Assembly (NCBI GenBank): GCA_030123645.1
Contig: JASJYE010000001.1
Span: 1 to 30,197 of the forward strand
Direction of reading: 5' to 3'
Length of the DNA stretch: 30,197 nucleotides
DNA from: Candidatus Hydrogenedentota bacterium
Lineage (GTDB): Bacteria; Hydrogenedentota; Hydrogenedentia; Hydrogenedentales; GCA-2746185
This document shows positions 18,865 through 30,197 of the stretch, piece by piece (position 1 is the stretch's first letter; the number at the start of each line of letters is the position of its first letter). The notes under the pieces are model-generated. The model had not been told where the DNA came from. It saw nothing but the letters and a program-made list of their open reading frames with translations, and made no database searches. The position numbers and the translations under genes are program-made.

Positions 18865-19707
18865 CACGAATTTTCACCGTCCTTCGCAAGTACTGCTATG
18901 TATCGGCATCATCGAAGTTGCGGCTTCGACTGTTTAAGGCTCAATGATGCCTGCAGTCATCCTGGCCCGTATCGCTCACTGGATTTCGTAACGAGGGAAT
19001 CGAGACGGCTGATACGACCGTGTCTGTTCGAAGGCTTTGGGATGACAACGTGGAAAGTCATGCCGAGGTCGCAAGAATGCGCGCGAGCCGACGCAAACCA
19101 AACCGTTCCTACCAAAAGAACTGAGACGGCTGTCATACACTGACGTGCTTTTTCATCATCTTCCATCTCTGTATGTGGAACACTTCCGCTGACAGCAGTA
19201 CGCACCTCACAAAACTCACTACTTTCGCTGGAGGCTCCTAAGTCCCTGTGCTTGATGCACTAGTCCAAATTCACACAAGCATAAGGCGCGCCATCTCACC
19301 GAGAGCGGCATTTTTCGCCGCTTCTGGGGCGCGAAAGGGCCTATATGGTGGTGATTGGCGAAACCAAGGCGAAATCGCTTTCCTCACGAAGTCATGCAAT
19401 TTTGCAAGAGATTTCGACGAGAGTCCTGCAAGATTGCAAGACTCGCAGCGATTCTCTCTACCGCGTAGGGCACCAGTTTAAGGGGAACGGTCAAACACCA
19501 AGAATCCCTTCACTCAGGTTGGACCATAGAATGGGGGCAGGCCATATCGGCCGTACCGAAACCGACCCCGATGCTAGAGCGACGGGTCTGGAAGCGGTTG
19601 CGCTCGGATAAATCTTCTCGACGATGTCCCCCCGGGGAGTCATAGTACTCTTCTTCGATGTCAACGCTTTGGTGCTTGGATCGACTGGTAGATCTGAGTG
19701 AATCACG

Positions 19708-20283
19708 ATGAATCTTGACCAAAAACACGTCTATCTTCGCTCGTTGACCGTCCTCGTTGCAGTCCTCGGGATTTCGCTGAGCGCGTCCCCGCAGGGTTTC
19801 GAGCGGACCGCCCTGGACGAATACGTCGCCGTGCCCGACCGGAACTACGAGTATTCGGTCGTGGTGGATGAACTGCTCGACGGCTTCCGCCACGTGGTGG
19901 TCGACATGGTGTCGCAACAGTGGCTCACCGAGGAGGAAGTCGACAAGCCCATCTGGTGACACTGGCTGGTACTGGCGGTTCCCGATGAGATCACGTCGAA
20001 CCGCGCGCTGCTCTACATCAGCCGCGGCGATAACGACGATGGACTGCCTGGCCCTAAGCAGCTGACTTCGTACTTGGCGACAGCCACGAAAACTGTGGTG
20101 GCGGAGTTGCGCATGATCCCGAATCAGCCGCTGGTGTTCACGGACGACGGCAAGCCCCGAAAAGAAGACTCCACGATCGCGTACACTTGGGACAACTACA
20201 TGCGCACGGGCGACGAAAAGTGGCCCCTGCGGCTGCCAATGACGAAGGCTGTGGTGCGCGCGATGCGAAAAAACGACCCTTGA
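19708..20283 (+). pseudogene. PhoPQ-activated pathogenicity-related (PqaA-like) exported protein, pseudogene
   Basis: Signal peptide, TALDEYV, DMVSQQWLT, then in-frame TGA at 19957-19959 inside W*HWL. The same frame continues VAELRMIPNQPL, IAYTW, WPLRLPMTKAVVRAM; similarity stops at 20265 (about 185 codons, so truncated). Confidence 0.75.
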
Positions 20284-20372
20284 ACCCAAAGAACTTAAGG
20301 AGTACTCAAGGGAAACCTGATGCCCTATGGGACGACTGTAGAAGGAAATATGGACTTCATCTTGCGTCCCCG

Positions 20373-20462
20373 GCACGCTTGATGCACAAGCTCGATCTGA
20401 ATAGCACCGCGGAAATCATCCGATTTGCTCTGGAGAACGGCATTGTCGGTCAGATAGCGTAA
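20373..20462 (+). pseudogene. C-terminal remnant of a LuxR/NarL-type HTH response regulator
   Basis: ARLMHKLDLNSTAEIIRFALENGI matches the last helices of LuxR-type HTH domains; no receiver domain or recognition helix upstream. Confidence 0.6.
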
Positions 20463-20709: not shown

Positions 20710-21537
20710 GTGAATAACAGTCACAGGGAACAAAGCAAAGGAAGACCCGGCATCAAGAGCCGGCTTCGCAGCACTGTGCTCGTCGTTCTGGGCCTCCTTG
20801 CCGCCGTTCTTCTCGCCATAGCCGTTAAGACCGCCTGGGGCTATCTGGGGGGCCAATCCGTATTGAGCGCCGCCGCGCGTGGCGAAGCGATTGCCGGGCG
20901 CTTTGGCTGTTTTGCTTGTCACGGTCCAAGGGGAAGCGGCGGTGTGGCCGACCCCGCTTCGCCGTCGGGGAACGTCCCCGGCTGGGATCGTGGAACGATG
21001 GTGATGTACGCGCAGAGTGACACCGACTTACGCGACTGGATCTTACACGGCGCGCTCCAAGGCGAATCGGTGGACAAACACCGCGAAACGAGCGCCGGCA
21101 TCATTCCCATGCCGTCCTACGAGGACGAGCTTTCCAAAGGGGAACTTGAAGCGCTACTTGCCTATCTGAAAGTCGTTTCAAATTGGGGTGACGACATCCC
21201 CGACACGGCCTACGACGGCTGGAAGGTTGCGTCCCGAATGGGGTGCTTTGGTTGCCACGGGCCCGGCGGAACGGGTCGTGTTCCCAATCCGGGCAGTCTG
21301 AAGGGCTATATCCCGCCGTGGGACGGAGATGAATTCGCTGAACTGGTCCGAGACGACGACGAACTGCGTGCCTGGATCCTGGACGGCTTTCCTCCGCGGC
21401 TTGGCAAGAACCCTATCGCGCGATATTTCTTGGAAAAGCAGAAAACACCCATGCCCGCCTACCGCGACTACCTGTCCGACAAAGAGGTGGATAACCTGGT
21501 GGCGTACATTCGCTGGACAAGGAAACCACAACCATGA
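20710..21537 (+). CDS. Membrane-anchored dihaem class I cytochrome c (internally duplicated)
   Basis: N-terminal TM, GCFACHG and GCFGCHG, each followed by P-W...LR-WIL-G...PMP-Y; stop overlaps next start (ATGA). Confidence 0.88.
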   Translation: MNNSHREQSKGRPGIKSRLRSTVLVVLGLLAAVLLAIAVKTAWGYLGGQSVLSAAARGEAIAGRFGCFACHGPRGSGGVADPASPSGNVPGWDRGTMVMYAQSDTDLRDWILHGALQGESVDKHRETSAGIIPMPSYEDELSKGELEALLAYLKVVSNWGDDIPDTAYDGWKVASRMGCFGCHGPGGTGRVPNPGSLKGYIPPWDGDEFAELVRDDDELRAWILDGFPPRLGKNPIARYFLEKQKTPMPAYRDYLSDKEVDNLVAYIRWTRKPQP

Positions 21538-23348
21538 CCGGGCATTTTGAAGCAGCTCGGTGGTTAGTGGTGCTCATCGCCTTCGCGGCCGGTCCGGCGC
21601 TAGCCCCCGCAGCCGCGTCGGAGAATCCAAGCGAAGGGAAGGGCGCGTATCGTTCGCCCATCCACGTCTGCCTCTCGCCCGATCGCTCCCGGGCATACGT
21701 AGTCAACCAGACCTCCGACTCCGTATCGGTATTAGACCTTCGGCAGAGGCGAGTGGTCGATGAGCTATCGGTGGGATCTTTCCCTTCGCATGCCGTCTGC
21801 TCGCCGGACGGTCGCCTGCTCTACGTTACGTGCAACTACGATTCTCAAATTCAGGTCGTCGATCTGGAGGCGATGCGAGTGGTCCGGACCATTCCAGCCG
21901 GCTTTGAACCCTATGGATTGGCGTTGTCATCGAAGGGGGAACGCATCGCCGTTGCGAACGCGTTGTCGAGCACCGTTTCCATGTTCGCGGCGAAAGATGG
22001 CGAGCCGCTATGGGAAACGCGGGTGCAACGCAACCCGAAGTACCTGACCATCACGAGGGACGGAACACGCGTCTTGGTCAGCAACGGGCTGTCGCGCAGC
22101 GTCTCCATTCTCGATGGACGCACCGGTGAAATTATGGAAATCCGCGACCTCGGACGGGCCGGTATTTTGCGGCAGGTCGTCTGTTCCCCCGACGACCGGT
22201 GGGCCTTTGTCGCCCATATCATATCTCGTGACGAGATAACGCCTTTTCAGCTCGAACGCGGGTTTGTCCATGCCAACGGGATCTCGATTTTGGACCTCGA
22301 TCGGACCGGCCACCGGGTAACGGTCCTCCTGGACCGGTTCTTGGCCGGGGCGGCGAACCCGTGGGGCCTTGCCCTGTCGGAGAATGCCGAGCGGCTCTAC
22401 GTTAGCCTGGCCGGCGTGCACGAAGTGGCCATTGTTGACGTGCCGGCCCTCTTATCCCTCGTAGCCGAGACGGATACACCCGAAAAGGTAGCCGCGCTCG
22501 AGCGAGATGTGGAGATCATGGACCGCCGGGGCCTCATGCGACGCGTCGATGCCGGGGGTATCGGCCCGCGAGGCCTGGCGCTGAACGAAGCCACGGGCGA
22601 ATTACTGGTCGCCAACTATTTCAGCGATTCGGTCTCCATCCTCGATGCTGAAACCGGGGCCATTCAGGCAGTGATCCCGCTCGGTCCCCCTCAGGAGATG
22701 AGCACCTGGCGTAAGGGAGAGATGCTTTTCAACGATGCCCGGTTGTGTTTCCAGCAATGGTTCAGTTGCGCGAGCTGCCATCAAGAAGACGCAACCGTCG
22801 ACGGCTTCAACTGGGACCTCCCGAACGACGGTGTGGGCAACGCCAAAAACGTCAAGTCCCTTCACGATATTTACGACACCGCCCCGGCGATGTGGACCGC
22901 CGTGCGTAAGGGCATGGACGTTGCCGTGGCCGCGGGTCAACGCTTTCTCGGCTTTCTGCCGGAACCGGAGAATCACCGGGCGTTAATGACGTTCCTCAAG
23001 TCTCCGAGACGTCCCCCCAACCCCTATAAAACGCGCGACCCCGCGATGGTCGAGCGCGGCGAGCGCGTCTTTTACAAGGCCCGATGCCATGCGTGTCATC
23101 CCGCGCCGGTGTTTTCAGACCTGAAACGGCATGATCTCGGCCTGGCAAGTTCCACCGACCTGCGATTCCGTTTTGACACGCCTTCGTTGCGCGAATGTGT
23201 CCGGACAGGCCCGTACTTGCACGATGGCCGCGCTCAAACGCTCCGTGAGATCTTCACGAAGTACAATCCGAACAACCTGCACGGCCTGACGAGCAACCTT
23301 GCGGATTCAGAGTTGCAAGCGTTGCTGGAATACCTACGGAGCCTCTGA
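21534..23348 (+). CDS. Secreted YVTN/YncE beta-propeller fused to CcP/MauG-like dihaem domain
   Basis: Signal peptide; repeats such as SPDRSRAYVVNQTSDSVSVLD and SPDGRLLYV; SCASCH, RCHACH, TPSLR...GPYLHDGRAQTL, HGLTSNL. Confidence 0.85.
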   Translation: MTGHFEAARWLVVLIAFAAGPALAPAAASENPSEGKGAYRSPIHVCLSPDRSRAYVVNQTSDSVSVLDLRQRRVVDELSVGSFPSHAVCSPDGRLLYVTCNYDSQIQVVDLEAMRVVRTIPAGFEPYGLALSSKGERIAVANALSSTVSMFAAKDGEPLWETRVQRNPKYLTITRDGTRVLVSNGLSRSVSILDGRTGEIMEIRDLGRAGILRQVVCSPDDRWAFVAHIISRDEITPFQLERGFVHANGISILDLDRTGHRVTVLLDRFLAGAANPWGLALSENAERLYVSLAGVHEVAIVDVPALLSLVAETDTPEKVAALERDVEIMDRRGLMRRVDAGGIGPRGLALNEATGELLVANYFSDSVSILDAETGAIQAVIPLGPPQEMSTWRKGEMLFNDARLCFQQWFSCASCHQEDATVDGFNWDLPNDGVGNAKNVKSLHDIYDTAPAMWTAVRKGMDVAVAAGQRFLGFLPEPENHRALMTFLKSPRRPPNPYKTRDPAMVERGERVFYKARCHACHPAPVFSDLKRHDLGLASSTDLRFRFDTPSLRECVRTGPYLHDGRAQTLREIFTKYNPNNLHGLTSNLADSELQALLEYLRSL

Positions 23349-23352
23349 TGGC

Positions 23353-26300
23353 ATGAAAGCCCGTACGCCCAGATGTCTTAGGTCTCGCGCCAAAATAGAT
23401 TTGCTAAGATCGCAAAAAAAGGGGACAGTCCCGTCTACGCTCGTGCCTCGCTTCGCTTGGTACAGTCCCCAATTTTTGCTAACACCCTCGAACAGACTTG
23501 GAAAGGTTATTTCGATCAAATCCTTTAGCACCGGCTTCCTGCTGATGGGAGTCCTGCTCTGCTATGGCATTGACGGAGGCGCGGAGACGATAGAGCGCGC
23601 CGGGGAAAAACGGGGACTGTACCAAGCGCAGCGAGGTACGAGCGGAGACGGGACTGTCCCCGTTTTTCCCGCCACCAACGCAGAAGAAGTCCAACCCATC
23701 TCGCGACCCTCTCGCTTCGGCGTTCTTAGTAGCCGGCGCTGGGCCTATGGCCGGCCCTATGAGCGAGAGAGTCTCGCGCCCGTCAAGAACCCGAATCCCC
23801 GTCCTGAACCACAGCCCACCCGCGACCATCCCTTCGACGTGGCGATCTCCGGCGACGGCAGCAAAGTGTACGTGGGCCTCCAGGGCACGGAACTGCAACC
23901 GGGCAATGAAGTGGCCGTTTACGATGTTGCGAGCGATCGGGTAACGAAACGCATCCGCTTGATACCGCCGGGTGAGAATGGGGCGCCGGGCTTGAGTCCG
24001 TACCGGCTGACGGCTCATCCCGGCGGCAGGTTTCTCCTTGTCACCAATCGCTTTTCGAATTTCGCGAGCGTTATCGATATGCGTAGCGATACGGTCGTGA
24101 GCGAAATCCCTTTAGACTTCTACTGTCAGGGAGTCGCTTTCGATCGAGCCGGCCGCACCCTCTACGTCGCCAACCGATACCTGGACCAAGCCTTCGTGGT
24201 TGACGTACACGCCGAGGGAGAACGCTTCGACGGGTCCATGAGGATTCTCGGCGGCTTGGACGCGGACGCGTTCCTGGGCAATACGACCGGGGCCGGTCTG
24301 CATTCCATGCTGGCGCGCCGTTGCGGCACGATCGGATGCCACGATGCGCTTCGAGGAGGATTCGTTGCAGGCGCGGACCCGCTCGATAGTTTCTCCTCCG
24401 TTATCCCCCACGTGTCGCTCGGCAATCCGGCCAAGAGCCGATTGCTGCGGGCCGTTCTGCGTAGCCGCGACGGCGGATACGCGGACGCGATACCGAAGTT
24501 TCGCAGTCACGCAGCGGGCACGGTGGTGTTCCCGGACCCCCGCAACGACACCGATTACCAATCTATCGCGAGTTGGATTGCCGCGAGCGCCCCCGGCCCC
24601 GGCATCCCCGTAGCGAACGTGCGGAGTAAGCCGAAGGTGTGCGTCCTGTCCACCGATGGGCGGTATCTCTACGTGGGCAATACGGGTACGCAGGACATTT
24701 CGATAGTCGATACCCGTCTCAATCGCGAGGTCGGCGGCATTTACATACAAAATGTCGCAAACGATTTGGGAATCTACCACGATCCCCAAAGCGGCCATGA
24801 CTACCTCATCGTAACGACCCAAGGCATCGGATTCGGAGTGGGCCGGGAACGGGACCCCTACGGTGGCGAGACCTGGGACCGCGAAAATCCGGCGGCGCAA
24901 TTCACGGTCTGGCGCGATCTGGAGACGGCTCGCGCGTTTCCCAGGGAGCGCCAGGAAGTGCTGGGCCCCTTCGACGCCGTGGACGGTACGGCCGCCATCA
25001 AGTTCCGCGACATTCAAAACGACCTTCTATTCTTGGACCTAAGTGCCCTCGAGATCCCGAGCGATCCCCCCTCCGGCCAATTGGACTATGTGCTGCTGGC
25101 AAATAAATACGAATCGCACCGCGACTGGGTGCGGTATACTTCGGACACTGCGGAGTCCACGTATGGGGATATCAAGGGCGACATCCCCCCGGACCTCATG
25201 CGGGTTGTCGGTGCCATGCCCGAAAAACTGGTGATCGTGGGAGACCGCCTGTTTGTGACTATGCAGGCAAGCAATCTGGTCCAGGAACTACAGATAAACC
25301 CCAATGCGCCCGATCCCAGTGACTATCTTATACCCCTGCGCACCTATCCAACAGGTCTTCAGCCCATAGGGATTGTGGCCGGGCCTCCTGGGACGCCCTC
25401 AGAAGGCAAGCTCTTTGTGGCGAACTTCTTAGGGGGGTCAATTTCGGTTATCGATACCAGAAACGGAAGCTCCCGGGAAGTGGTGGTTGACCCCTCGGTC
25501 CTCCGCATACCCGTGCCCGCAACCAATGCGGAACGTGGGGAGGTTTTCGCACACTCCGCCGAGTTCTCTTCGGACGGCGATACGTCGTGTTTCCATTGCC
25601 ATTACCTGGATACGGGAGACGGCCGGCCTTGGGGCGTCAGCCAGGTCGTGGGCCAGGAATTCCTCTCGATCGAGGATGAGGTCGGCCAGTTGGCGATAGG
25701 GGGTACGATGGGGGTGCCTCAGATGCGGGGACTGTTTGCCATTCAACCCTTCTTTTTTGAAGGGGTCATTTCAGCCTTTGAACCGCGATCCATGATCATG
25801 GAACACGCACCCGCCGATGATTTCGCTCGCGCCACGCCGCAGGGAGATTTTACGGCCATCGAGGCCCATTACATTCAGACCGCGGCGGCCGACATCCAGT
25901 CCGGCGTGGATGCCTCGGCCAAATCCCAGGCTACCCATGACGAACGCCGCGACGAAATGTTTCGCCGCCAATCCATGAAGTATTTCGGCAAGTCTTTCAA
26001 TCTTCGAGATTTCCAGCGCTTCGTGGGCGAGTGGCAGATCCACGAACCCCGGCTTCTGCCCAATCCCTTTGACCCAGACCACCCCTCCGTGCGCCGCGGG
26101 AAGAAACTCTTCGAAGACCCGCAAGTCGGTTGCGCGGCGTGCCATGTTTCCCCCCATTTCACCAGAAAGGATTTTCGTGAAAACAAGGAACAGGCCTTCG
26201 AGTCCATGGTTACGTTTACCGTGCGCGACGGGGCATTTACGCTGATAGGAATGAACCGCCTCGATTACATCAATGGATATCTCAGGGATTTGGAACCCTG

Positions 26301-26667
26301 GGACATCGGCCGGGTCGAAGCAAACCAGGGCCACTTCACGACCTTTTCACTCCGGGGCATTTGGGACCGGCCCCCTGTTTTCCTTCACAACGGAATGGCA
26401 CGCACCCTTCGTGAGGTGGTGGCCAAACCGGGCCATCCCGGTCTGGGCACATTCAAATACGAACCACGCATTGGAGGCGTTCCCGAGCGGCCGGGTCGCA
26501 AGGAGGTCGGGTTTAACACCACGTACCTCTTCGCCGAGGCCGTTCCCGCGGTGAAAGCGCACATCAAAGCGGGATCGCGGATCGGCTTCGACACCCACGG
26601 CGGCACCTCGCAGTTGACGCGGCAGCAAATCGATGACCTGGTCAATTTCATAAACACTATAGAATGA
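23353..26667 (+). CDS. Large beta-propeller + CX4CH haem domain + CcP-like dihaem protein (start uncertain)
   Basis: Propeller repeats (ISGDGSKVYV, FDRAGRTLYVANRY, STDGRYLYVGN), CGTIGCH, SCFHCH, GCAACH, SLRGIWDRPPVFLHNG, HGGTSQL. Frame is open from 23299; possible ATGs at 23353 and 23545. Stop overlaps next ATG. Confidence 0.8.
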   Translation: MKARTPRCLRSRAKIDLLRSQKKGTVPSTLVPRFAWYSPQFLLTPSNRLGKVISIKSFSTGFLLMGVLLCYGIDGGAETIERAGEKRGLYQAQRGTSGDGTVPVFPATNAEEVQPISRPSRFGVLSSRRWAYGRPYERESLAPVKNPNPRPEPQPTRDHPFDVAISGDGSKVYVGLQGTELQPGNEVAVYDVASDRVTKRIRLIPPGENGAPGLSPYRLTAHPGGRFLLVTNRFSNFASVIDMRSDTVVSEIPLDFYCQGVAFDRAGRTLYVANRYLDQAFVVDVHAEGERFDGSMRILGGLDADAFLGNTTGAGLHSMLARRCGTIGCHDALRGGFVAGADPLDSFSSVIPHVSLGNPAKSRLLRAVLRSRDGGYADAIPKFRSHAAGTVVFPDPRNDTDYQSIASWIAASAPGPGIPVANVRSKPKVCVLSTDGRYLYVGNTGTQDISIVDTRLNREVGGIYIQNVANDLGIYHDPQSGHDYLIVTTQGIGFGVGRERDPYGGETWDRENPAAQFTVWRDLETARAFPRERQEVLGPFDAVDGTAAIKFRDIQNDLLFLDLSALEIPSDPPSGQLDYVLLANKYESHRDWVRYTSDTAESTYGDIKGDIPPDLMRVVGAMPEKLVIVGDRLFVTMQASNLVQELQINPNAPDPSDYLIPLRTYPTGLQPIGIVAGPPGTPSEGKLFVANFLGGSISVIDTRNGSSREVVVDPSVLRIPVPATNAERGEVFAHSAEFSSDGDTSCFHCHYLDTGDGRPWGVSQVVGQEFLSIEDEVGQLAIGGTMGVPQMRGLFAIQPFFFEGVISAFEPRSMIMEHAPADDFARATPQGDFTAIEAHYIQTAAADIQSGVDASAKSQATHDERRDEMFRRQSMKYFGKSFNLRDFQRFVGEWQIHEPRLLPNPFDPDHPSVRRGKKLFEDPQVGCAACHVSPHFTRKDFRENKEQAFESMVTFTVRDGAFTLIGMNRLDYINGYLRDLEPWDIGRVEANQGHFTTFSLRGIWDRPPVFLHNGMARTLREVVAKPGHPGLGTFKYEPRIGGVPERPGRKEVGFNTTYLFAEAVPAVKAHIKAGSRIGFDTHGGTSQLTRQQIDDLVNFINTIE
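23412..23479. repeat. 68-bp hairpin (REP/MITE-like) element, copy 1
   Basis: Arms GCAAAAAAAGGGGAC / GTCCCCAATTTTTGC (13/15 complementary). The core 23421-23470 is the reverse complement of 23612-23661 at 47/50. Confidence 0.85.
23603..23670. repeat. 68-bp hairpin (REP/MITE-like) element, copy 2, inverted relative to copy 1
   Basis: Perfect 15-bp arms GGGAAAAACGGGGAC / GTCCCCGTTTTTCCC; read in frame as EKRGLYQAQRGTSGDGTVPVFP. Confidence 0.85.
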
Positions 26668-27707
26668 AAATGAACAAACTCATTGGAAATCTTTCGTGTA
26701 GGCGCGCCGCTCCCGCACTCGCGGTCTGTGCAATCCTGGCATCCGGGCTGGCCGGGGCGCAGGCCTTGCGATACGAAGAGATCGTCCACGAAAAGGATGA
26801 ATCCGTCATGCTGATTGTTCCGGCGTCGGAGTTTCTTATGGGAACCGGCGAGCAGCATCCGGATCTCCCGGAAGATTTTTCCACGGAGGGTTCCCTTTCA
26901 CCTCGGGACGTGCTGATCGTCCGCGCGGCGCCCGCTTGGCGACACGCCGACGAACGCCCCGCTCGACGGGTGAGGCTCGATGCCTTTGCCATCGACCGCT
27001 ACGAAGTGACGAACGCCCAGTATCGTACGTTTCTGAAAGTGATTCGCGAAACGAAGGACCACGGGCGGTGCCACCCCGGCGAGCCGGCCGGGAAAGATCA
27101 CACACCTCGCTACTGGGGACACTACAATCCCTTACTCGAAGACCCCGCCTACCGAAAGACCGCGCCCTTTGGGCCGGATACGTTTACGCGGGAAGACAGG
27201 CCGGTCGTGGGCGTTGACTGGTTCGACGCCTACGCCTATGCGGCGTGGGCCGGCAAGCGATTGCCTTCCGAAGCCGAATGGGAACGGGCTGCCCGTGGGC
27301 AAGATGGACGCCGCTGGCCCTGGGGCGATGCGTGGCAATGGCGACTGGCCAACGGGGGCGGTGAGAAGAAGGGGCAGGACATTCAGGACACGGGCACCGA
27401 GAAGGACGGGTACATTTATGCCGCGCCCGTGGGCAGCTACCCGAAAGGGCGTAGCCCCGTCGGATCCGATGACATGGCCGGCAACGTGGCGGAATGGTGC
27501 GCCGACTGGTACCAGGGCGACTATTACGCCTCGGCGCCGGAAGAGAACCCAAGCGGGCCGGGCCGTGGCACATATCGGGTCGTGCGTGGCGGCAGTTCCC
27601 GGAACGCCCCCAGTAACATGCGTTGCGCGGTTCGCGGCTATCACGAACCGGAGTTCAAGACCTTTACGCTCGGATTTCGCTGCGCAAAGGATTGGGAGGG
27701 GCATTAA
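26664..27707 (+). CDS. Secreted FGE-sulfatase (SUMF1/PvdO/NirV-like) fold protein
   Basis: Signal peptide; FLMG, YEVTNAQY, PVVGVDWFDA, RLPSEAEWERAARG, DMAGNVAEW, RVVRGGS, GFRCA; no CxxxxC after RGGS. Confidence 0.88.
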   Translation: MKMNKLIGNLSCRRAAPALAVCAILASGLAGAQALRYEEIVHEKDESVMLIVPASEFLMGTGEQHPDLPEDFSTEGSLSPRDVLIVRAAPAWRHADERPARRVRLDAFAIDRYEVTNAQYRTFLKVIRETKDHGRCHPGEPAGKDHTPRYWGHYNPLLEDPAYRKTAPFGPDTFTREDRPVVGVDWFDAYAYAAWAGKRLPSEAEWERAARGQDGRRWPWGDAWQWRLANGGGEKKGQDIQDTGTEKDGYIYAAPVGSYPKGRSPVGSDDMAGNVAEWCADWYQGDYYASAPEENPSGPGRGTYRVVRGGSSRNAPSNMRCAVRGYHEPEFKTFTLGFRCAKDWEGH

Positions 27708-28757
27708 GTGTTGCTGCTCGCATTGCATCTGTTGATCCAGCCCTTGGCGGGCCTGGAGGCGCCGGAGGGTATGGTCTTCGTGCCGGCCGGACCGTTCTTC
27801 ATGGGTTCGAGCGAAGGGGGCGCCGATGAGGCGCCGCCCCGCCGGGTTGATGTATCCGCGTTCTTTATCGACATGCGCGAAGTAACGAACGCAGCCTTCG
27901 CCGATTTCGTTCTAGAGACGGAATTCTTCGACCGGATCGAGGGGCCCTGGTTCCGGTATTCGGCGGAGGGCTGCCTGGCTTTGATGCGCCATTACGAGCG
28001 AAGGGGCGGTGACTTTCCGGCTGCCGCTTCCGCCGGCAGACTCGAGGACGATCGCATTTCGGAATCGGACTTGGCCCGTTGGCGTTCGGCCGTCACCGCG
28101 TTAAAAGCCATGCTGCCTGAGGAGGAAATGGTCCCCGACGGTGCAACCGTTTCTCAGTTTGAAAGACTACCCGCCGTGCTAAACTTAGTAGAAGAGCAGG
28201 CCCTACTGCCGGTGCGTGGCGTCACGTGGCGGGACGCCACGGCCTACGCCGAATGGGCCGGGAAGCGGCTGCCCACGGAAGCCGAATGGGAGAAAGCGGC
28301 CAGGGGCGTTGACAGCCGCCTTTATCCCTGGGGGAATGCGTGGGATTCGCGGCGCTGCTCAGGGGACTCGCCACGGAGAGACGGACCCGCGCGGGTCGGA
28401 AGTTTTCCTGACGGCGCGAGTCCCTACGGCTGTCTCGATATGGCGGGAAACGTCTGGGAATGGGTTGCGGACTGGTACGGCGAGTCGTATTACGCCCAAG
28501 CGCCGGTCGTCGCCGATCCCAAGGGTCCTAAGGGATTGCCGAACGGGCAGTTGCCCATGCCGGCCGAAAACGTTGACAAATTGCGCTCGACCGAACAGGG
28601 GCGGGAAACCGATACACGCAAGGTTATTCGGGGAGGAGGTTGGACGGGTCCCAAACACCAGACGCGTTTCAATCTCCGGTGTTCCAGACGGTTCTGGAGC
28701 AACCCCTCATACTGGCACGAAGACGTGGGTTTTCGTTGCGTAAAGGAGGTGACATGA
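27708..28757 (+). CDS. Second FGE-sulfatase fold protein
   Basis: GMVFVPAGPFFMGS, EVTNAAF, PVRGVTWRDA, RLPTEAEWEKAARG, DMAGNVWEW, KVIRGGGW, GFRCV; hydrophobic N-terminus; GTG directly follows the previous TAA. Confidence 0.88.
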   Translation: MLLLALHLLIQPLAGLEAPEGMVFVPAGPFFMGSSEGGADEAPPRRVDVSAFFIDMREVTNAAFADFVLETEFFDRIEGPWFRYSAEGCLALMRHYERRGGDFPAAASAGRLEDDRISESDLARWRSAVTALKAMLPEEEMVPDGATVSQFERLPAVLNLVEEQALLPVRGVTWRDATAYAEWAGKRLPTEAEWEKAARGVDSRLYPWGNAWDSRRCSGDSPRRDGPARVGSFPDGASPYGCLDMAGNVWEWVADWYGESYYAQAPVVADPKGPKGLPNGQLPMPAENVDKLRSTEQGRETDTRKVIRGGGWTGPKHQTRFNLRCSRRFWSNPSYWHEDVGFRCVKEVT

Positions 28758-28758
28758 A

Positions 28759-29937
28759 ATGAAAGTATTAGATACCGAAACAGCGGCACGCACAGGAGTG
28801 GACGTGTCGGAAGTAGAGCGAGATTCTTGTACGGAATTCTATCTAACGGGCTCGATAGCTATGGACTATGCCAAGGATTCGTCGACGAACGCCCTTTTCT
28901 CTGAATTGGCCGATATCCTCGCCCGCGACGGAATTCAAGTGATCCAGGAAAAGGTGTACGGACTTCGCACCGCGAAGGAGGCCATCATGAAAGCCCGTGA
29001 TGCCGCCTTGGCGGAGCATGGCCTGGACCCGGCGCTGCCCGTGACTTTTCTAGAGGGGAAGCCGGCACGGCACGGGGACTTCGCGGGCTTCCAGTTGTGG
29101 GGCGTCGTCCCGAACCCGGGAAAAGACGTGCAGGTCACGACGGTCAAGAACTCCCTGGGAGGCAGTGGGCGTTGTCTGGCGGGCGAAGGCTTCCGCTTGT
29201 TCTATTTCCCCATGATTAACGGCGCGCGAAGCGACGGCGCCCTGCCTGATTGCGTTACCGGGCAGACCGACCAAATGTTCCAAAACGCCAGCGCCACGCT
29301 ATCCGCCCATAACCTCACGTTCAAAGACGTGCCTCGGACCTGGATCTATTTGGCGAGGATTCTGGACTGGTATGGCGAATTCAACCGGGTCCGCACCGAA
29401 CACTTTGAAAAAGTGGGGCTGCGGCGCGGAGATCCTGAGACGGTGTTCCCCGCCAGCACGGGAATTCAAGGCCAATCCCACGATGAAGAATGCGTCATGG
29501 ACATATTGGCCTTAGAAAACCTGGAAGAGGGCGCCGTGGAGCTAACGCCCATCCGCGAGACCTCGCGTCAGAACCAGGCCTTTGCCTACGGGTCGGCTTT
29601 TTCGCGCGCCATGTCCGTCAAGCGCGAAGGAGTCAACACCGTGTACGTCTCAGGTACGGCAAGCATCAACGCAAAGGGCGAAACACTGTATCAAGGCGAC
29701 GCGGAAGCTCAGAGCGTCGAGACACTCCTGAGTATCGGAGCGCTACTCGAAGACCAAGGCGGCAGCCTGCAAAACATCTGCCAGGCCACCCTGTTCTGCA
29801 AGGACCGCGAGTCGTTCGAGGCCTACGAACGCGTAGCCCGGCAACTCAACGTGCCCCATTTTCCCACGGTCAGCGTCATCGCGGACGTCTGCCGCCACGA
29901 CCTGTCAATCGAGATTGAAGCCACGGCCGTTATCTAA
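28759..29937 (+). CDS. Rid (YjgF/YER057c/UK114)-fold enzyme, FkbO/Hyg5 chorismatase-like, cytoplasmic
   Basis: RTWIYL, FNRVR, FPASTGI, SAFSRA, YVSGTASI, ADVCRHDLSIEIEA; strong RBS AAGGAGG; no signal peptide. Confidence 0.75.
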   Translation: MKVLDTETAARTGVDVSEVERDSCTEFYLTGSIAMDYAKDSSTNALFSELADILARDGIQVIQEKVYGLRTAKEAIMKARDAALAEHGLDPALPVTFLEGKPARHGDFAGFQLWGVVPNPGKDVQVTTVKNSLGGSGRCLAGEGFRLFYFPMINGARSDGALPDCVTGQTDQMFQNASATLSAHNLTFKDVPRTWIYLARILDWYGEFNRVRTEHFEKVGLRRGDPETVFPASTGIQGQSHDEECVMDILALENLEEGAVELTPIRETSRQNQAFAYGSAFSRAMSVKREGVNTVYVSGTASINAKGETLYQGDAEAQSVETLLSIGALLEDQGGSLQNICQATLFCKDRESFEAYERVARQLNVPHFPTVSVIADVCRHDLSIEIEATAVI

Positions 29938-30169
29938 GAAACAAATTGGCGCAGCATAACATCGCCCCCGATGCTACGTGCCTGCGAGGGTGCGAAAACA
30001 TATCCGCGCCGGGTTCATTATGATTGTGAGGATAATCTTCTCAAAGTTAATCACAAACTGGTAGGTCATCGAAGTACTCACCTTGATTAGCCCGCATCGC
30101 TCACAGCCCATTAGTGATTCGCCGCGCTTGCTAAGTTGTTCGGCGACAGTACATTAGGCAGAGGAATAG

Positions 30170-30189
30170 CCGGAACCACCGGTTTGGTA
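30170..30189 (-). repeat. 20-bp repeat variant, copy in right-edge intergenic region
   Basis: CCGGAACCACCGGTTTGGTA, exact reverse complement of 6004-6023 (21 bp including the flanking base). Confidence 0.85.
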
Positions 30190-30197
30190 TTAACGAT

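What the first reader, a model, noticed from the sequence alone, without database searches (positions are those of the whole stretch)
20710..29937. Uncharacterised six-gene periplasmic redox system: dihaem cyt c + two propeller-peroxidase paralogues + two non-catalytic FGE-fold proteins + Rid/chorismatase-like enzyme
Seen: six co-oriented genes joined by ATGA overlaps or 0-4-nt gaps (taking ATG 23353 for gene 3), with seven predicted c-haem sites and signal or anchor sequences on five products. Known: propeller + CcP-like dihaem chemistry underlies hydrazine synthase (HzsB/HzsC) and MauB/MauG; FGE-fold proteins accompany redox enzymes (NirV with nirK, PvdO); FkbO/Hyg5 act on chorismate. I know of no described pathway with this combination. 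Inference: the membrane cytochrome feeds or drains electrons for a heteromeric propeller-haem enzyme doing N-oxide, N-N or aromatic oxidation chemistry, with FGE-fold accessory subunits and a cytoplasmic substrate-supplying enzyme. Its head-to-head position with a nitrate reductase operon makes nitrogen-oxide chemistry the first hypothesis to test.
Basis: partly seen in the sequence, partly recalled or inferred. Interest (0 to 1): 0.9.

Follow-up and report, generated by a model that had tools for sequence, protein, structure and literature searches.

The report
Conserved hydrazine-synthase-like haem operon with chorismatase
The six genes form a real operon, conserved and horizontally spread across several phyla, for a membrane-tethered periplasmic seven-haem complex distantly related to anammox hydrazine synthase, joined to two FGE-fold proteins and a cytoplasmic chorismatase; its function is unknown and its position beside nitrate reductase is not conserved.

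Summary
Six co-oriented, tightly packed genes encode:
- a membrane-anchored dihaem cytochrome c (g1);
- an HzsB+HzsC-like propeller-dihaem protein (g2);
- a larger three-haem paralogue (g3);
- two exported FGE-fold proteins without the catalytic cysteines (g4, g5);
- a cytoplasmic chorismatase-fold enzyme (g6).

**Conservation.** The order g1-g2-g3-g4-g5 recurs in 29 species-level genomes of Planctomycetota, Verrucomicrobiota, Elusimicrobiota, Myxococcota and Nitrospirota. g6 follows in 14 of 24 loci with enough DNA. An extra DAHP synthase follows g6 in six.

**Sister clade.** There, HzsBC-like genes sit beside HZS_alpha-domain proteins. Seven of these carry a fused FGE domain, and nine loci hold a chorismatase-like gene. 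The haem-FGE-chorismatase link is therefore recurrent, and I found no paper describing it.

- No other locus has nar genes nearby.
- NarG was found in 0 of 5 carrier genomes and NirK in 1 of 5.
- g3 occurs in no other genome of the window's phylum, so the cluster arrived by transfer.
- g2 lacks hydrazine synthase's signature His and Cys.

**Best reading.** A CcP/MauG-like periplasmic haem oxidoreductase acts with or on a chorismate-derived hydroxybenzoate. The substrate is unproven.

This scan had noted alpha/beta-gamma HZS-like pairs before, on other DNA (e1-2423250).

The parts
20710..21537 (+). g1: membrane-anchored dihaem cytochrome c (275 aa). One N-terminal hydrophobic helix at about residues 22-40; haem sites C67xxCH and C179xxCH.
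   Evidence: Pfam Cytochrom_C and Cytochrome_CBB3, two stretches. Sequence. Present upstream of g2 in 21 of 29 related loci. Fused to the N-terminus of the g2 orthologue in Lacunisphaera limnophila, 47% identity over residues 27-275.
21534..23348 (+). g2: exported HzsB-like seven-blade YVTN propeller fused to an HzsC-like (CcP/MauG-fold) dihaem domain (604 aa).
   Evidence: PDB hits 5c2v_B at 4e-40 (residues 41-370) and 5c2v_C at 2e-23 to 5e-25. NCBIfam hydrazine_BC scores 208.8 bits against a cut-off of 1250. C412xxCH, C518xxCH, W454 and H583 are invariant in 20 orthologues. More than 1300 homologues exist.
23353..26667 (+). g3: large three-haem paralogue of g2. An HzsB-like propeller carries an inserted CX4CH haem module (nt 24322-24342), followed by a divergent dihaem domain. 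The start codon is uncertain; conserved sequence begins near nt 23710.
   Evidence: Colinear BLASTP match to g2. All three haem motifs and FLHxG are invariant in 28 orthologues. In the AF2 model the propeller is confident and its best PDB match is HzsB 5c2v_B (TM 0.72 on the target); no HzsA appears in the top 50. No HZS_alpha Pfam hit. Only 64 representatives reach E<=1e-30 among 1.84 billion proteins.
23415..23667 (.). Two inverted copies (23415-23476 and 23606-23667) of a dispersed palindromic repeat, lying in the non-conserved 5' part of g3.
   Evidence: Arms of 62 nt, 90% complementary. The two copies give 76 and 55 BLAST hits across the genome's contigs.
26664..27707 (+). g4: exported FGE-fold protein without the catalytic Cys pair (347 aa). 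Family signature K144-D-H-T-P-R-Y-W ... N155-P-L.
   Evidence: Pfam FGE-sulfatase 3e-58. In the alignment to S. coelicolor FGE (2q17/6muj), the enzyme's two Cys face a gap and non-Cys residues. Present after g3 in 25 of 25 loci with enough DNA. Signature columns.
27708..28757 (+). g5: second FGE-fold protein (349 aa) with a ~100-residue insertion. It has no Cys pair in the RGGxW...LRC region.
   Evidence: Pfam FGE-sulfatase 1e-55. Sequence. Present in 24 of 25 loci.
28759..29937 (+). g6: cytoplasmic chorismatase-fold enzyme (392 aa, no signal peptide). Hyg5-like motif DVC378RxDLxIE385IE.
   Evidence: A profile of 18 orthologues hits Hyg5 5ag3 (8e-18) and FkbO 4bps (1.5e-14) ahead of all RidA proteins. 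The AF2 model (pLDDT 88.5) has the three chorismatase structures as its best Foldseek matches over the whole chain, TM 0.55-0.69. g6 follows g5 in 14 of 24 loci.
19702..20462 (+). Junction between the nar operon and the cluster, made of gene remnants: a PqaA-like fragment with an in-frame TGA, and a LuxR-like C-terminal tail.
   Evidence: PF10142 hit on 19708-19959. The same frame continues after TGA 19957-19959 up to 20283. The tail '...LNSTAEIIRFALENGIVGQIA' ends at 20462.

Best explanation
**What is shown.** The six genes are one horizontally mobile operon.
- g2 and g3 are paralogous subunits, each a propeller plus a CcP/MauG-fold dihaem domain, of the hydrazine-synthase-like (HzsBC-like) family.
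- g1 is a dedicated dihaem cytochrome c anchored in the membrane.
- g4 and g5 are FGE-fold proteins without the copper cysteines.
- g6 is a cytoplasmic chorismatase with the Hyg5-type catalytic Glu and signature Cys.
- In many hosts an extra DAHP synthase follows g6.

**What is inferred.**
- g1 to g5 form a membrane-tethered periplasmic seven-haem complex.
- g1 exchanges electrons between the respiratory chain (bc1 or ACIII) and the electron-transfer haems of g2 and g3.
- The open, five-coordinate-type haems of g2 and g3 perform a two-site redox reaction in the manner of CcP, MauG or MbnH, using the conserved inter-haem Trp.
- g4 and g5 act as substrate-binding or scaffold subunits.
- g6 turns chorismate into pyruvate plus a hydroxybenzoate-type aromatic, and that aromatic is the organic substrate or precursor handled by the periplasmic complex.

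The position next to nitrate reductase is an accident of insertion. It is not a functional link.
For: - **Conserved order.** g1-g5 recurs in 29 loci from at least five phyla, and g6 follows in 14 of 24 with enough DNA.
- **A distinct clade with transfer.** The tier-1 clade has 100/100 support and phyla are intermixed inside it. g3 is in 1 of 135 genomes of the window's phylum.
- **g1-g2 fusion** in an Opitutaceae isolate.
- **g2 equals HzsB plus HzsC**, but Trp sits where HZS has His, and the 7-residue insertion that carries HZS's third haem-binding Cys is missing. PMC12758564 reports the same Trp in other homologues.
- **g3** is a beta-gamma-type paralogue with three invariant haem sites.
- **FGE domains** are fused to HZS_alpha-domain proteins in 7 sister-clade loci, again without the Cys pair.
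- **Small-molecule FGE-fold relatives.** g4's PDB relatives include CalU17, ToxD and PvdO.
- **g6 is a chorismatase by profile and by fold**. Its catalytic Glu and the CH-II Cys are spaced as in Hyg5 (PMC7170507).
- **DAHP synthase** directly follows g6 in 6 loci of two phyla. It is an additional paralogue in 4 of 5 of those genomes.
- **Chorismatase-like genes** also lie within 10 kb in 9 sister-clade loci.
Against: - No substrate, product or expression data exist.
- No exporter, ligase or other tailoring gene is conserved in the cluster, so it is unexplained how a cytoplasmic aromatic would reach the periplasmic complex.
- g6 is absent next to the cluster in 10 of 24 loci. In four of five such genomes only a 33-38% relative was found elsewhere, so the aromatic may be dispensable.
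- Complex formation by g2-g5 is inferred from synteny and fusions, not modelled.
- The haem domain of the g3 model is unreliable (pLDDT below 50).
- The closest solved relative is an N-N bond-forming enzyme, and the window's own genome shows Nar but no NirK, NirS or NrfA in its assembled 83%. That leaves room for nitrogen chemistry here.
Confidence: 0.45

Rival explanations
1. Nitrogen-oxide or hydroxylamine enzyme. As in hydrazine synthase, the HzsC-like haem of g2 reduces NO (or a nitrite-derived species) to a hydroxylamine-level intermediate with electrons from g1. The second subunit, g3, then reduces it further or condenses it with an amine. In this genome the cluster would complement Nar.
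For: - g2's best solved relatives are HzsB and HzsC, with strong conservation around the first haem (WDLxxxGxGxxKN).
- In this window the cluster lies beside rrf2-narGHJI-narK-ACIII.
- No NirK, NirS or NrfA was found in the own genome, which is 83% complete.
- One orthologous locus has a Crp/Fnr regulator directly upstream (L026).
Against: - No nar, nir or Rrf2 gene lies near any of 80 related loci.
- NarG was found in 0 of 5 carrier genomes and NirK in 1 of 5.
- The HZS signature His and the Cys-bearing insertion are absent.
- No HZS_alpha protein exists in the cluster or the genome.
- Carriers include aerobic heterotroph lineages.
- This reading does not explain the chorismatase or the DAHP synthase.
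Confidence: 0.2
2. Protein-cofactor maturation system. The MauG/MbnH-like dihaem domains of g2 and g3 oxidise residues of the FGE-fold proteins g4 and g5, as MauG does on pre-MADH or MbnH on MbnP. This would create a quinone-type or otherwise modified residue, and the FGE-fold proteins would be the real catalysts.
For: - The inter-haem Trp and CcP/MauG fold of g2, with weak hits to MauG, MbnH and BthA.
- FGE-fold proteins always accompany the haem subunits and are sometimes fused to them.
- g4 has its own invariant His/Tyr/Trp-rich signature.
Against: - No target residue has been identified.
- It does not explain g6 or the DAHP synthase, nor why there are two haem paralogues with propellers.
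- A permanent fusion of FGE to an HZS-alpha-like subunit suggests a structural partner more than a transient substrate.
Confidence: 0.12
3. Respiratory peroxide or oxygen-species detoxification. The complex is an elaborate membrane-tethered cytochrome c peroxidase that reduces H2O2 with electrons from the quinol pool through g1. g4 to g6 would be unrelated passengers.
For: - CCP_MauG Pfam hit above the cut-off in g2 (34.3 against 25.6 bits).
- A membrane dihaem cytochrome as donor, with a CcoP-like weak hit.
- Occurrence in aerobes and microaerophiles.
Against: - The strict co-conservation of g3, g4 and g5, and the recurrence of chorismatase and FGE in two distant clades, argue against passengers.
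- g2 has no His 16 residues after the first CxxCH, where bacterial CcP has its distal His (position from memory; the g2 residue).
Confidence: 0.1

Closest known systems
Anammox hydrazine synthase HZS (HzsA/HzsB/HzsC, PDB 5C2V; HzsBC fused in 'Ca. Scalindua')
   Same: g2 has the HzsB propeller followed by the HzsC dihaem domain, as in the fused HzsBC. The sequence around both haems and the C-terminal HGxTSxL...YLxxL tail is conserved. A second haem-bearing subunit is encoded next to it, and electrons come from a c-type cytochrome.
   Different: - The partner g3 is a beta-gamma-type paralogue, not an HzsA homologue. It has no HZS_alpha domain, and the fold search finds HzsB rather than HzsA.
- HZS gamma-His is replaced by Trp, and the insertion carrying the third haem-binding Cys is missing.
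- The NCBIfam score is far below the cut-off.
- The hosts are not anammox bacteria.
- FGE-fold and chorismatase genes are not part of HZS.
HZS-like alpha + beta-gamma gene pairs of non-anammox bacteria (Hagglund et al. 2025, PMC12758564, clades I-IV; Suarez et al. 2023, PMC10732223)
   Same: The same superfamily of fused HzsBC-like proteins with Trp instead of the HZS His. Function is unknown, distribution is patchy in Planctomycetota, Verrucomicrobiota and other phyla, and FG-GAP/CRTAC1-like neighbours occur in some loci.
   Different: - Those pairs have an HZS_alpha-domain partner. Here the partner is a second beta-gamma paralogue with an inserted CX4CH module.
- The clade is well separated (100/100; g2 identity 33-41% to the sister clade).
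- It has a fixed g1-g5 order.
- The papers do not mention FGE-fold or chorismatase genes.
Bacterial dihaem cytochrome c peroxidase / MauG / MbnH / BthA family (Pfam PF03150)
   Same: Two c haems with a conserved Trp between them, the PYxHDG motif, and weak but significant sequence hits.
   Different: Fused to a propeller. Two paralogues occur in one operon. The scores to MauG, MbnH and CcP equivalog models are far below their cut-offs.
FGE-fold proteins outside sulfatase maturation: PvdO (5hha), ToxD (7spq), CalU17 (7ml6), SUMF2
   Same: FGE-sulfatase fold without the Cu-binding Cys pair. PvdO, like g4, is periplasmic and takes part in the oxidative maturation of an aromatic chromophore (from memory). 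All appear among g4's PDB hits.
   Different: g4 is closer in score to true FGEs (5e-36) than to PvdO (2e-10) or ToxD (5e-21). It has its own signature insertion, and none of the NCBIfam equivalog cut-offs is reached.
Chorismatases FkbO (4bps), Hyg5 (5ag3), XanB2
   Same: A pseudo-trimeric Rid fold in one chain. The motifs RTWxY, FPA(S/A)TGI, SGTAS and DVCRxDLLxEIE are shared, with the catalytic Glu and the Hyg5-type Cys (PMC7170507). Pairing with a pathway-specific DAHP synthase is usual for dedicated aromatic supply.
   Different: Only about 20% identity. TIGR04444 scores 51 bits against a cut-off of 325. g6 is about 50 residues longer. The other subfamily-defining residues were not assigned, so the product (3-HBA, 4-HBA or the dihydroxy-cyclohexadiene acid) is open. 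No PKS, NRPS or pigment genes lie nearby.

Membership tests
Hydrazine synthase (HZS) | An alpha subunit with the HZS_alpha middle domain (PF18582) encoded with the beta and gamma subunits | tested here: not met
   No PF18582 hit in g3 or any cluster protein. None in the whole genome, which is 83% complete. The g3 model matches HzsB, not HzsA.
Hydrazine synthase (HZS) | Beta propeller plus gamma dihaem domain (fused in Scalindua) | tested here: met
   g2 residues 41-370 match 5c2v_B (4e-40) and residues 390-604 match 5c2v_C (5e-25).
Hydrazine synthase (HZS) | The gamma-subunit His between the haems (gamma-His144) and the third covalent haem link through gamma-Cys165 | tested here: not met
   In the HMMER alignment, HzsC's His ('frHeg') faces g2's invariant W454. 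HzsC's Cys ('drvCgrd') lies in a 7-residue insertion that g2 lacks. The meaning of these residues is taken from PMC12758564.
Hydrazine synthase (HZS) | NCBIfam equivalog scores (hydrazine_BC 1250 bits, hydrazine_beta 560, hydrazine_gamma 625) | tested here: not met
   g2 scores 208.8, 154.8 and 85 bits. g3 scores 53.8, 50 and 29.6 bits.
Bacterial dihaem CcP/MauG superfamily (PF03150) | Two CxxCH sites, a conserved inter-haem Trp, and a Pfam score above the gathering threshold | tested here: met
   g2 scores 34.3 bits on PF03150 against a cut-off of 25.6. C412xxCH, W454 and C518xxCH are invariant. For g3 only the motifs and colinearity with g2 are shown.
Formylglycine-generating enzyme (true FGE) | The two catalytic, Cu-binding cysteines (CxxxxC after RGGS) | tested here: not met
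   In the g4 alignment to 2q17/6muj, both Cys face a gap or non-Cys residues. g5 has no such pair by inspection. The fused domains of the sister clade read RGGSxYDRPKR... with no such pair.
FGE-sulfatase fold (PF03781) | Pfam domain over its full length | tested here: met
   g4 3e-58 over profile positions 18-255. g5 1e-55 over positions 3-255.
Chorismatase (FkbO/Hyg5/XanB2) | Single-chain pseudo-trimeric Rid fold | tested here: met
   AF2 model with pLDDT 88.5. The top seven Foldseek PDB hits are 5ag3, 5a3k and 4bps over about 400 columns, TM 0.55-0.69. Single-domain RidA proteins follow at TMq 0.27.
Chorismatase (FkbO/Hyg5/XanB2) | Catalytic Glu (Hyg5 Glu334), and for the CH-II/Hyg5 type a Cys seven residues before it | tested here: met
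   g6 DVC378RHDLSIE385IE aligns with Hyg5 DVC327RSDLLVE334IE. Both residues are invariant in 18 sequences. Their roles are taken from PMC7170507. The two Gly signature positions were not assigned.
Chorismatase (FkbO/Hyg5/XanB2) | NCBIfam TIGR04444 cut-off (325 bits) | tested here: not met
   51.1 bits. g6 is therefore a distant, unclassified branch, and its activity on chorismate is inferred.
RidA imine/enamine deaminase | The conserved Arg of the PAR motif | tested here: not met
   In the alignments to YabJ and RidA, 'kPARs' faces g6 'fPTVs'.

The most novel reading that the evidence does not exclude
A non-anammox relative of hydrazine synthase that joins inorganic nitrogen or oxygen chemistry to an organic substrate. 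The two propeller-haem subunits would activate NO, hydroxylamine or O2/H2O2 at one haem and transfer the intermediate to a chorismate-derived hydroxybenzoate held by the FGE-fold subunits. The result would be an N- or O-functionalised aromatic, such as a nitroso, amino, hydrazino or quinone compound, made in the periplasm. This would be a new class of respiratory-chain-coupled biosynthetic enzyme, spread by horizontal transfer.
Probability: 0.12. Interest if true: 0.9.

Novelty: new variant of a known kind. Interest (0 to 1): 0.62.

Why it matters
- **Origin of anammox.** Hydrazine synthase was long thought to have no relatives, and its origin is an open question. This operon defines a compact, well-conserved and easily recognised clade of HZS-like enzymes. 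It has a different subunit logic: two beta-gamma paralogues instead of alpha plus beta-gamma.
- **First contextual clues to substrate.** FGE-fold subunits, which are fused to the alpha-like subunit in a sister clade, and a dedicated chorismatase with DAHP synthase accompany the haem genes. The published surveys do not mention either link.
- **Directly testable.** The cluster occurs in cultured Opitutaceae and Pelagicoccus isolates, so the function of the HZS-like superfamily can be approached by experiment.
- **A caution for annotation.** HZS-like genes next to nar genes in a metagenome-assembled genome should not be read as nitrogen-cycle potential.

Tried and rejected
- **Single-sequence locus scan.** A scan with g2 alone found nothing. 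The alignment-based scan worked.
- **Nar linkage.** I looked for narG, narH, narI, narK, Rrf2 and act genes in all 80 loci and found none. NarG and NirK were searched in five carrier genomes. An empty NarG result has no positive control other than the window itself.
- **g3 as an HzsA analogue.** Rejected by Pfam, the PDB sequence search and the fold search.
- **g6 as a RidA deaminase.** Rejected, because the Arg is absent and chorismatases score higher.
- **A conserved function downstream of g5 in loci without g6.** The neighbouring genes are unrelated: a kinase, a PT-HINT protein, a PcRGLX-like protein and a multihaem cytochrome.
- **A promoter upstream of g1.** The consensus scan found no + strand site.
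- **The 288-aa minus-strand ORF at 19510-20376.** It has no Pfam hit, it has lower GC3 than the opposite frame, and it is antisense to a PqaA-like remnant. It is probably not a gene.
- **g3 model.** Only the propeller is usable.
- **ToxC/ToxD.** The resemblance of the toxoflavin enzymes (a propeller protein plus an FGE-like protein, from memory; ToxD's PDB hit; roles from PMC13755311) was only named and not pursued.
- **Limits of the method.** ORF calling in the loci was a simple longest-ORF procedure, and antisense shadows appear in high-GC loci. Some MAG taxon labels are plainly unreliable ('Rickettsiales', 'Bifidobacterium', 'Akkermansia').

Full report
**1. The observation**

The window is one whole contig (C300) of a 2.93-Mb, 531-contig genome that is 83% complete.

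On the minus strand it carries alternative complex III genes, two NarK-type transporters, narIJHG, a cytochrome c and an Rrf2 regulator.

On the plus strand, from 20710 to 29937, lie six genes. They are separated by ATGA overlaps or by gaps of 0, 1 and 4 nt. Pfam and NCBIfam give these assignments:

| Gene | Assignment |
|---|---|
| g1 | dihaem cytochrome c with one N-terminal helix |
| g2 | YVTN propeller plus CCP_MauG dihaem domain |
| g3 | propeller protein of about 1100 aa with haem motifs |
| g4, g5 | FGE-sulfatase fold |
| g6 | two Rid-like stretches |

- All seven haem motifs exist. All five in g2 and g3 are invariant in orthologues.
- The CX4CH of g3 is a plain CxxCH in five orthologues. 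That supports reading it as a haem site.
- The only weak point is the start of g3. Its first ~120 residues are not conserved. That stretch holds two inverted copies of a short palindromic repeat that gives 76 and 55 BLAST hits across the genome's contigs. Orthologues have ordinary signal peptides shortly before the conserved PSRFGxLTSRRWAYG.

**2. What the proteins are**

*g2.* It matches the solved hydrazine synthase beta subunit (5c2v_B, 4e-40) and gamma subunit (5c2v_C, 5e-25) in that order. This is the fused HzsBC architecture.
- It falls far below NCBI's HZS cut-offs (208.8 against 1250 bits).
- In the alignment, the HZS-specific His faces g2's invariant Trp454.
- The Cys that gives HZS its third haem link lies in an insertion that g2 lacks.
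- The same Trp was reported for other non-anammox homologues (PMC12758564).

*g3.* It is colinear with g2: propeller, first CxxCH, second CxxCH, then FLHxG for PYLHDG.
- It has no HZS_alpha domain.
- In its AF2 model the propeller is confident, and the best PDB match is HzsB. HzsA is not among the top 50.
- g3 is therefore a second beta-gamma-type subunit, not an alpha analogue.

*g4 and g5.* g4 aligns to bacterial FGE, but both catalytic Cys are missing. g5 also lacks them.

*g6.* A profile of 18 g6 orthologues finds the chorismatases Hyg5 and FkbO ahead of every RidA protein.
- It shares the motif DVCRxDLLxEIE with them.
- The model (pLDDT 88.5) matches the three solved chorismatase entries over the whole chain.
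- Glu385 and Cys378 correspond to Hyg5's catalytic Glu334 and its type-II signature Cys327 (PMC7170507).
- The RidA Arg is absent.

**3. Conservation**

An alignment-based scan of one genome per species found relatives of g2 in 419 stretches. Of the 80 loci fetched, the 29 in which g2 identity is at least 49% all show the same neighbourhood:

| Feature | Count |
|---|---|
| g2-g3 adjacent | 27 of 27 loci where the DNA allows |
| g4 present | 25 of 25 loci with enough DNA |
| g5 present | 24 of 25 |
| g1 upstream | 21 loci |
| g6 after g5 | 14 of 24 loci with at least 3.5 kb downstream |

- The hosts are labelled Planctomycetota, Verrucomicrobiota (including the isolates DG1235, Pelagicoccus sp. 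SDUM812002 and Opitutaceae bacterium MBA3-11), Elusimicrobiota, Myxococcota and Nitrospirota.
- In the g2 tree this clade has 100/100 support and phyla are intermixed inside it.
- g3 was found in none of the other 134 genomes of the window's phylum.
- In a library of 1.84 billion representatives, only 64 reach E<=1e-30 against g3.
- The cluster is therefore a rare, coherent and horizontally moving unit.
- In Lacunisphaera limnophila, g1 is fused to the N-terminus of g2. That ties the cytochrome to the enzyme.

**4. The chorismate link**

- Directly after g6, on the same strand, six loci of two phyla encode a DAHP synthase.
- In four of five of those genomes it is an extra copy, beside a 50-52% identical paralogue and a KdsA-like gene. 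This is the usual sign of a dedicated supply of chorismate.
- Where g6 is not adjacent, a homologue exists elsewhere in the genome in 5 of 5 cases. Only one of these is at orthologue level (51% identity).

**5. The sister clade**

- The loci with 33-41% identity to g2 lack g1 and g3. In 25 of them the g2-like gene sits next to proteins with the HZS_alpha domain. These are the alpha/beta-gamma pairs of PMC12758564 and PMC10732223.
- Seven of the 46 alpha-like proteins carry a C-terminal FGE-sulfatase domain, again without the Cys pair.
- Nine loci have a chorismatase-like gene within 10 kb. Four show the order alpha(-FGE), beta-gamma, chorismatase-like.
- Their chorismatase-like proteins keep the invariant Cys-Arg...Glu motif.
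- Haem complex, FGE fold and chorismatase thus co-occur in two clades that are only about 37% identical. This is hard to ascribe to chance.
- No paper in the searchable library contains 'hydrazine synthase' together with formylglycine-generating enzyme, sulfatase-modifying factor, chorismatase or FkbO.

**6. The nitrate-reductase neighbourhood**

- None of the 80 loci has a nar, Rrf2 or ACIII gene within 10 kb.
- NarG was not found in five carrier genomes, and NirK in one of five.
- In the window, the 1.8 kb between rrf2 and g1 holds no sound gene. It contains a PqaA-like fragment with an in-frame TGA that stops short, a LuxR-like C-terminal tail, and a minus-strand ORF without family and with lower GC3 than the opposite frame.
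- With the phylum result, this looks like an insertion junction and not a divergent regulon.
- In fairness, the window's genome shows no NirK, NirS or NrfA in its assembled part. A role downstream of nitrate in this particular host is therefore not excluded.

**7. Mechanism**

*Shown:* the domain content, the haem sites, the co-conservation, the fusions and the chorismatase fold with its catalytic residues.

*Inferred:*
- g1-g5 form one membrane-tethered periplasmic complex.
- g1 links it to the respiratory chain.
- g2 and g3 work like CcP, MauG or MbnH enzymes, given the Trp between the haems. No His stands where CcP has its distal ligand; that position is from memory.
- The FGE-fold proteins bind the substrate or scaffold the complex.
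- The g6 product, a hydroxybenzoate-type aromatic, is what the complex handles.

*Basis for preferring this over nitrogen-oxide chemistry:*
- the context evidence in sections 4 to 6;
- the loss of the HZS signature residues;
- the existence of FGE-fold proteins that process small aromatic or heterocyclic molecules. PvdO, ToxD and CalU17 are all among g4's PDB hits.

*Weak points:* the lack of any exporter or further tailoring gene, the absence of g6 in 10 of 24 loci, and the total lack of experimental data.

**8. Verdict**

The family is a new, well-defined variant within the already reported but uncharacterised HZS-like superfamily. The FGE and chorismatase connection is new information and gives concrete experiments in cultured hosts.

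Noticed in passing
window 19702-20462 (+), and ORF 19510-20376 (-): A PqaA-like (PF10142) fragment is interrupted by an in-frame TGA at 19957-19959 and ends at 20283. A LuxR/GerE-like C-terminal tail in another frame ends at 20462. The 288-aa minus-strand ORF over this stretch has no family and lower GC3 (0.60 against 0.79), so it is probably not a gene.
   Followed up: partly
window 30085-30197: The last ~110 nt of the contig belong to a repeat found at 27 other places in the genome, several of them at contig ends. It is probably the end of a mobile element that broke the assembly just after g6, so what follows g6 in this genome is unknown.
   Followed up: partly
window 23415-23476 and 23606-23667: A short palindromic REP/MITE-like element that gives 76 and 55 BLAST hits across the genome's contigs. 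Two inverted copies sit inside or just before the 5' end of g3 without closing the frame.
   Followed up: partly
L071:1705-5721, L036:4855-9063, L065:6231-9890 and four more loci: Proteins of 1150-1400 aa that fuse an HZS_alpha-domain haem protein to a C-terminal FGE-sulfatase domain lacking the Cys pair. An HzsBC-like gene and, in three of the loci, a chorismatase-like gene follow.
   Followed up: partly
L036:9060-9917: A thioredoxin/AhpC-TSA-like protein is encoded between the alpha-FGE fusion and the HzsBC-like gene in a Phycisphaerae locus.
   Followed up: no
L026:4992-5786: A Crp/Fnr-family regulator lies directly upstream of, and co-oriented with, the g2 orthologue in an Elusimicrobia locus that lacks g1.
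   Followed up: no
L007, L008, L009, L011, L012, L015, L022, L024 (for example L022:2897-6511): Large FG-GAP/ASPIC-UnbV (CRTAC1-like) proteins lie next to the cluster in eight loci. The same family is reported between the alpha-like and beta-gamma-like genes in PMC12758564.
   Followed up: partly
L001:16017-17936: In the Oslofjord-tunnel MAG locus, g5 and g6 are missing after g4. A multihaem (c554-like) cytochrome follows instead, and a DAHP synthase lies on the opposite strand.
   Followed up: no
whole genome G000: The genome has narGHJI with two NarK genes and ACIII. No NirK, NirS or NrfA was found in the assembled 83%, and there is a single DAHP synthase, on contig C114.
   Followed up: partly
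window 27060-27140 (g4 residues 132-157): A g4-specific insertion has invariant K144, H146, P148-R-Y-W151 and N155-P-L, with near-invariant H137, in 26 sequences. It may be a binding or metal site that true FGEs do not have.
   Followed up: no
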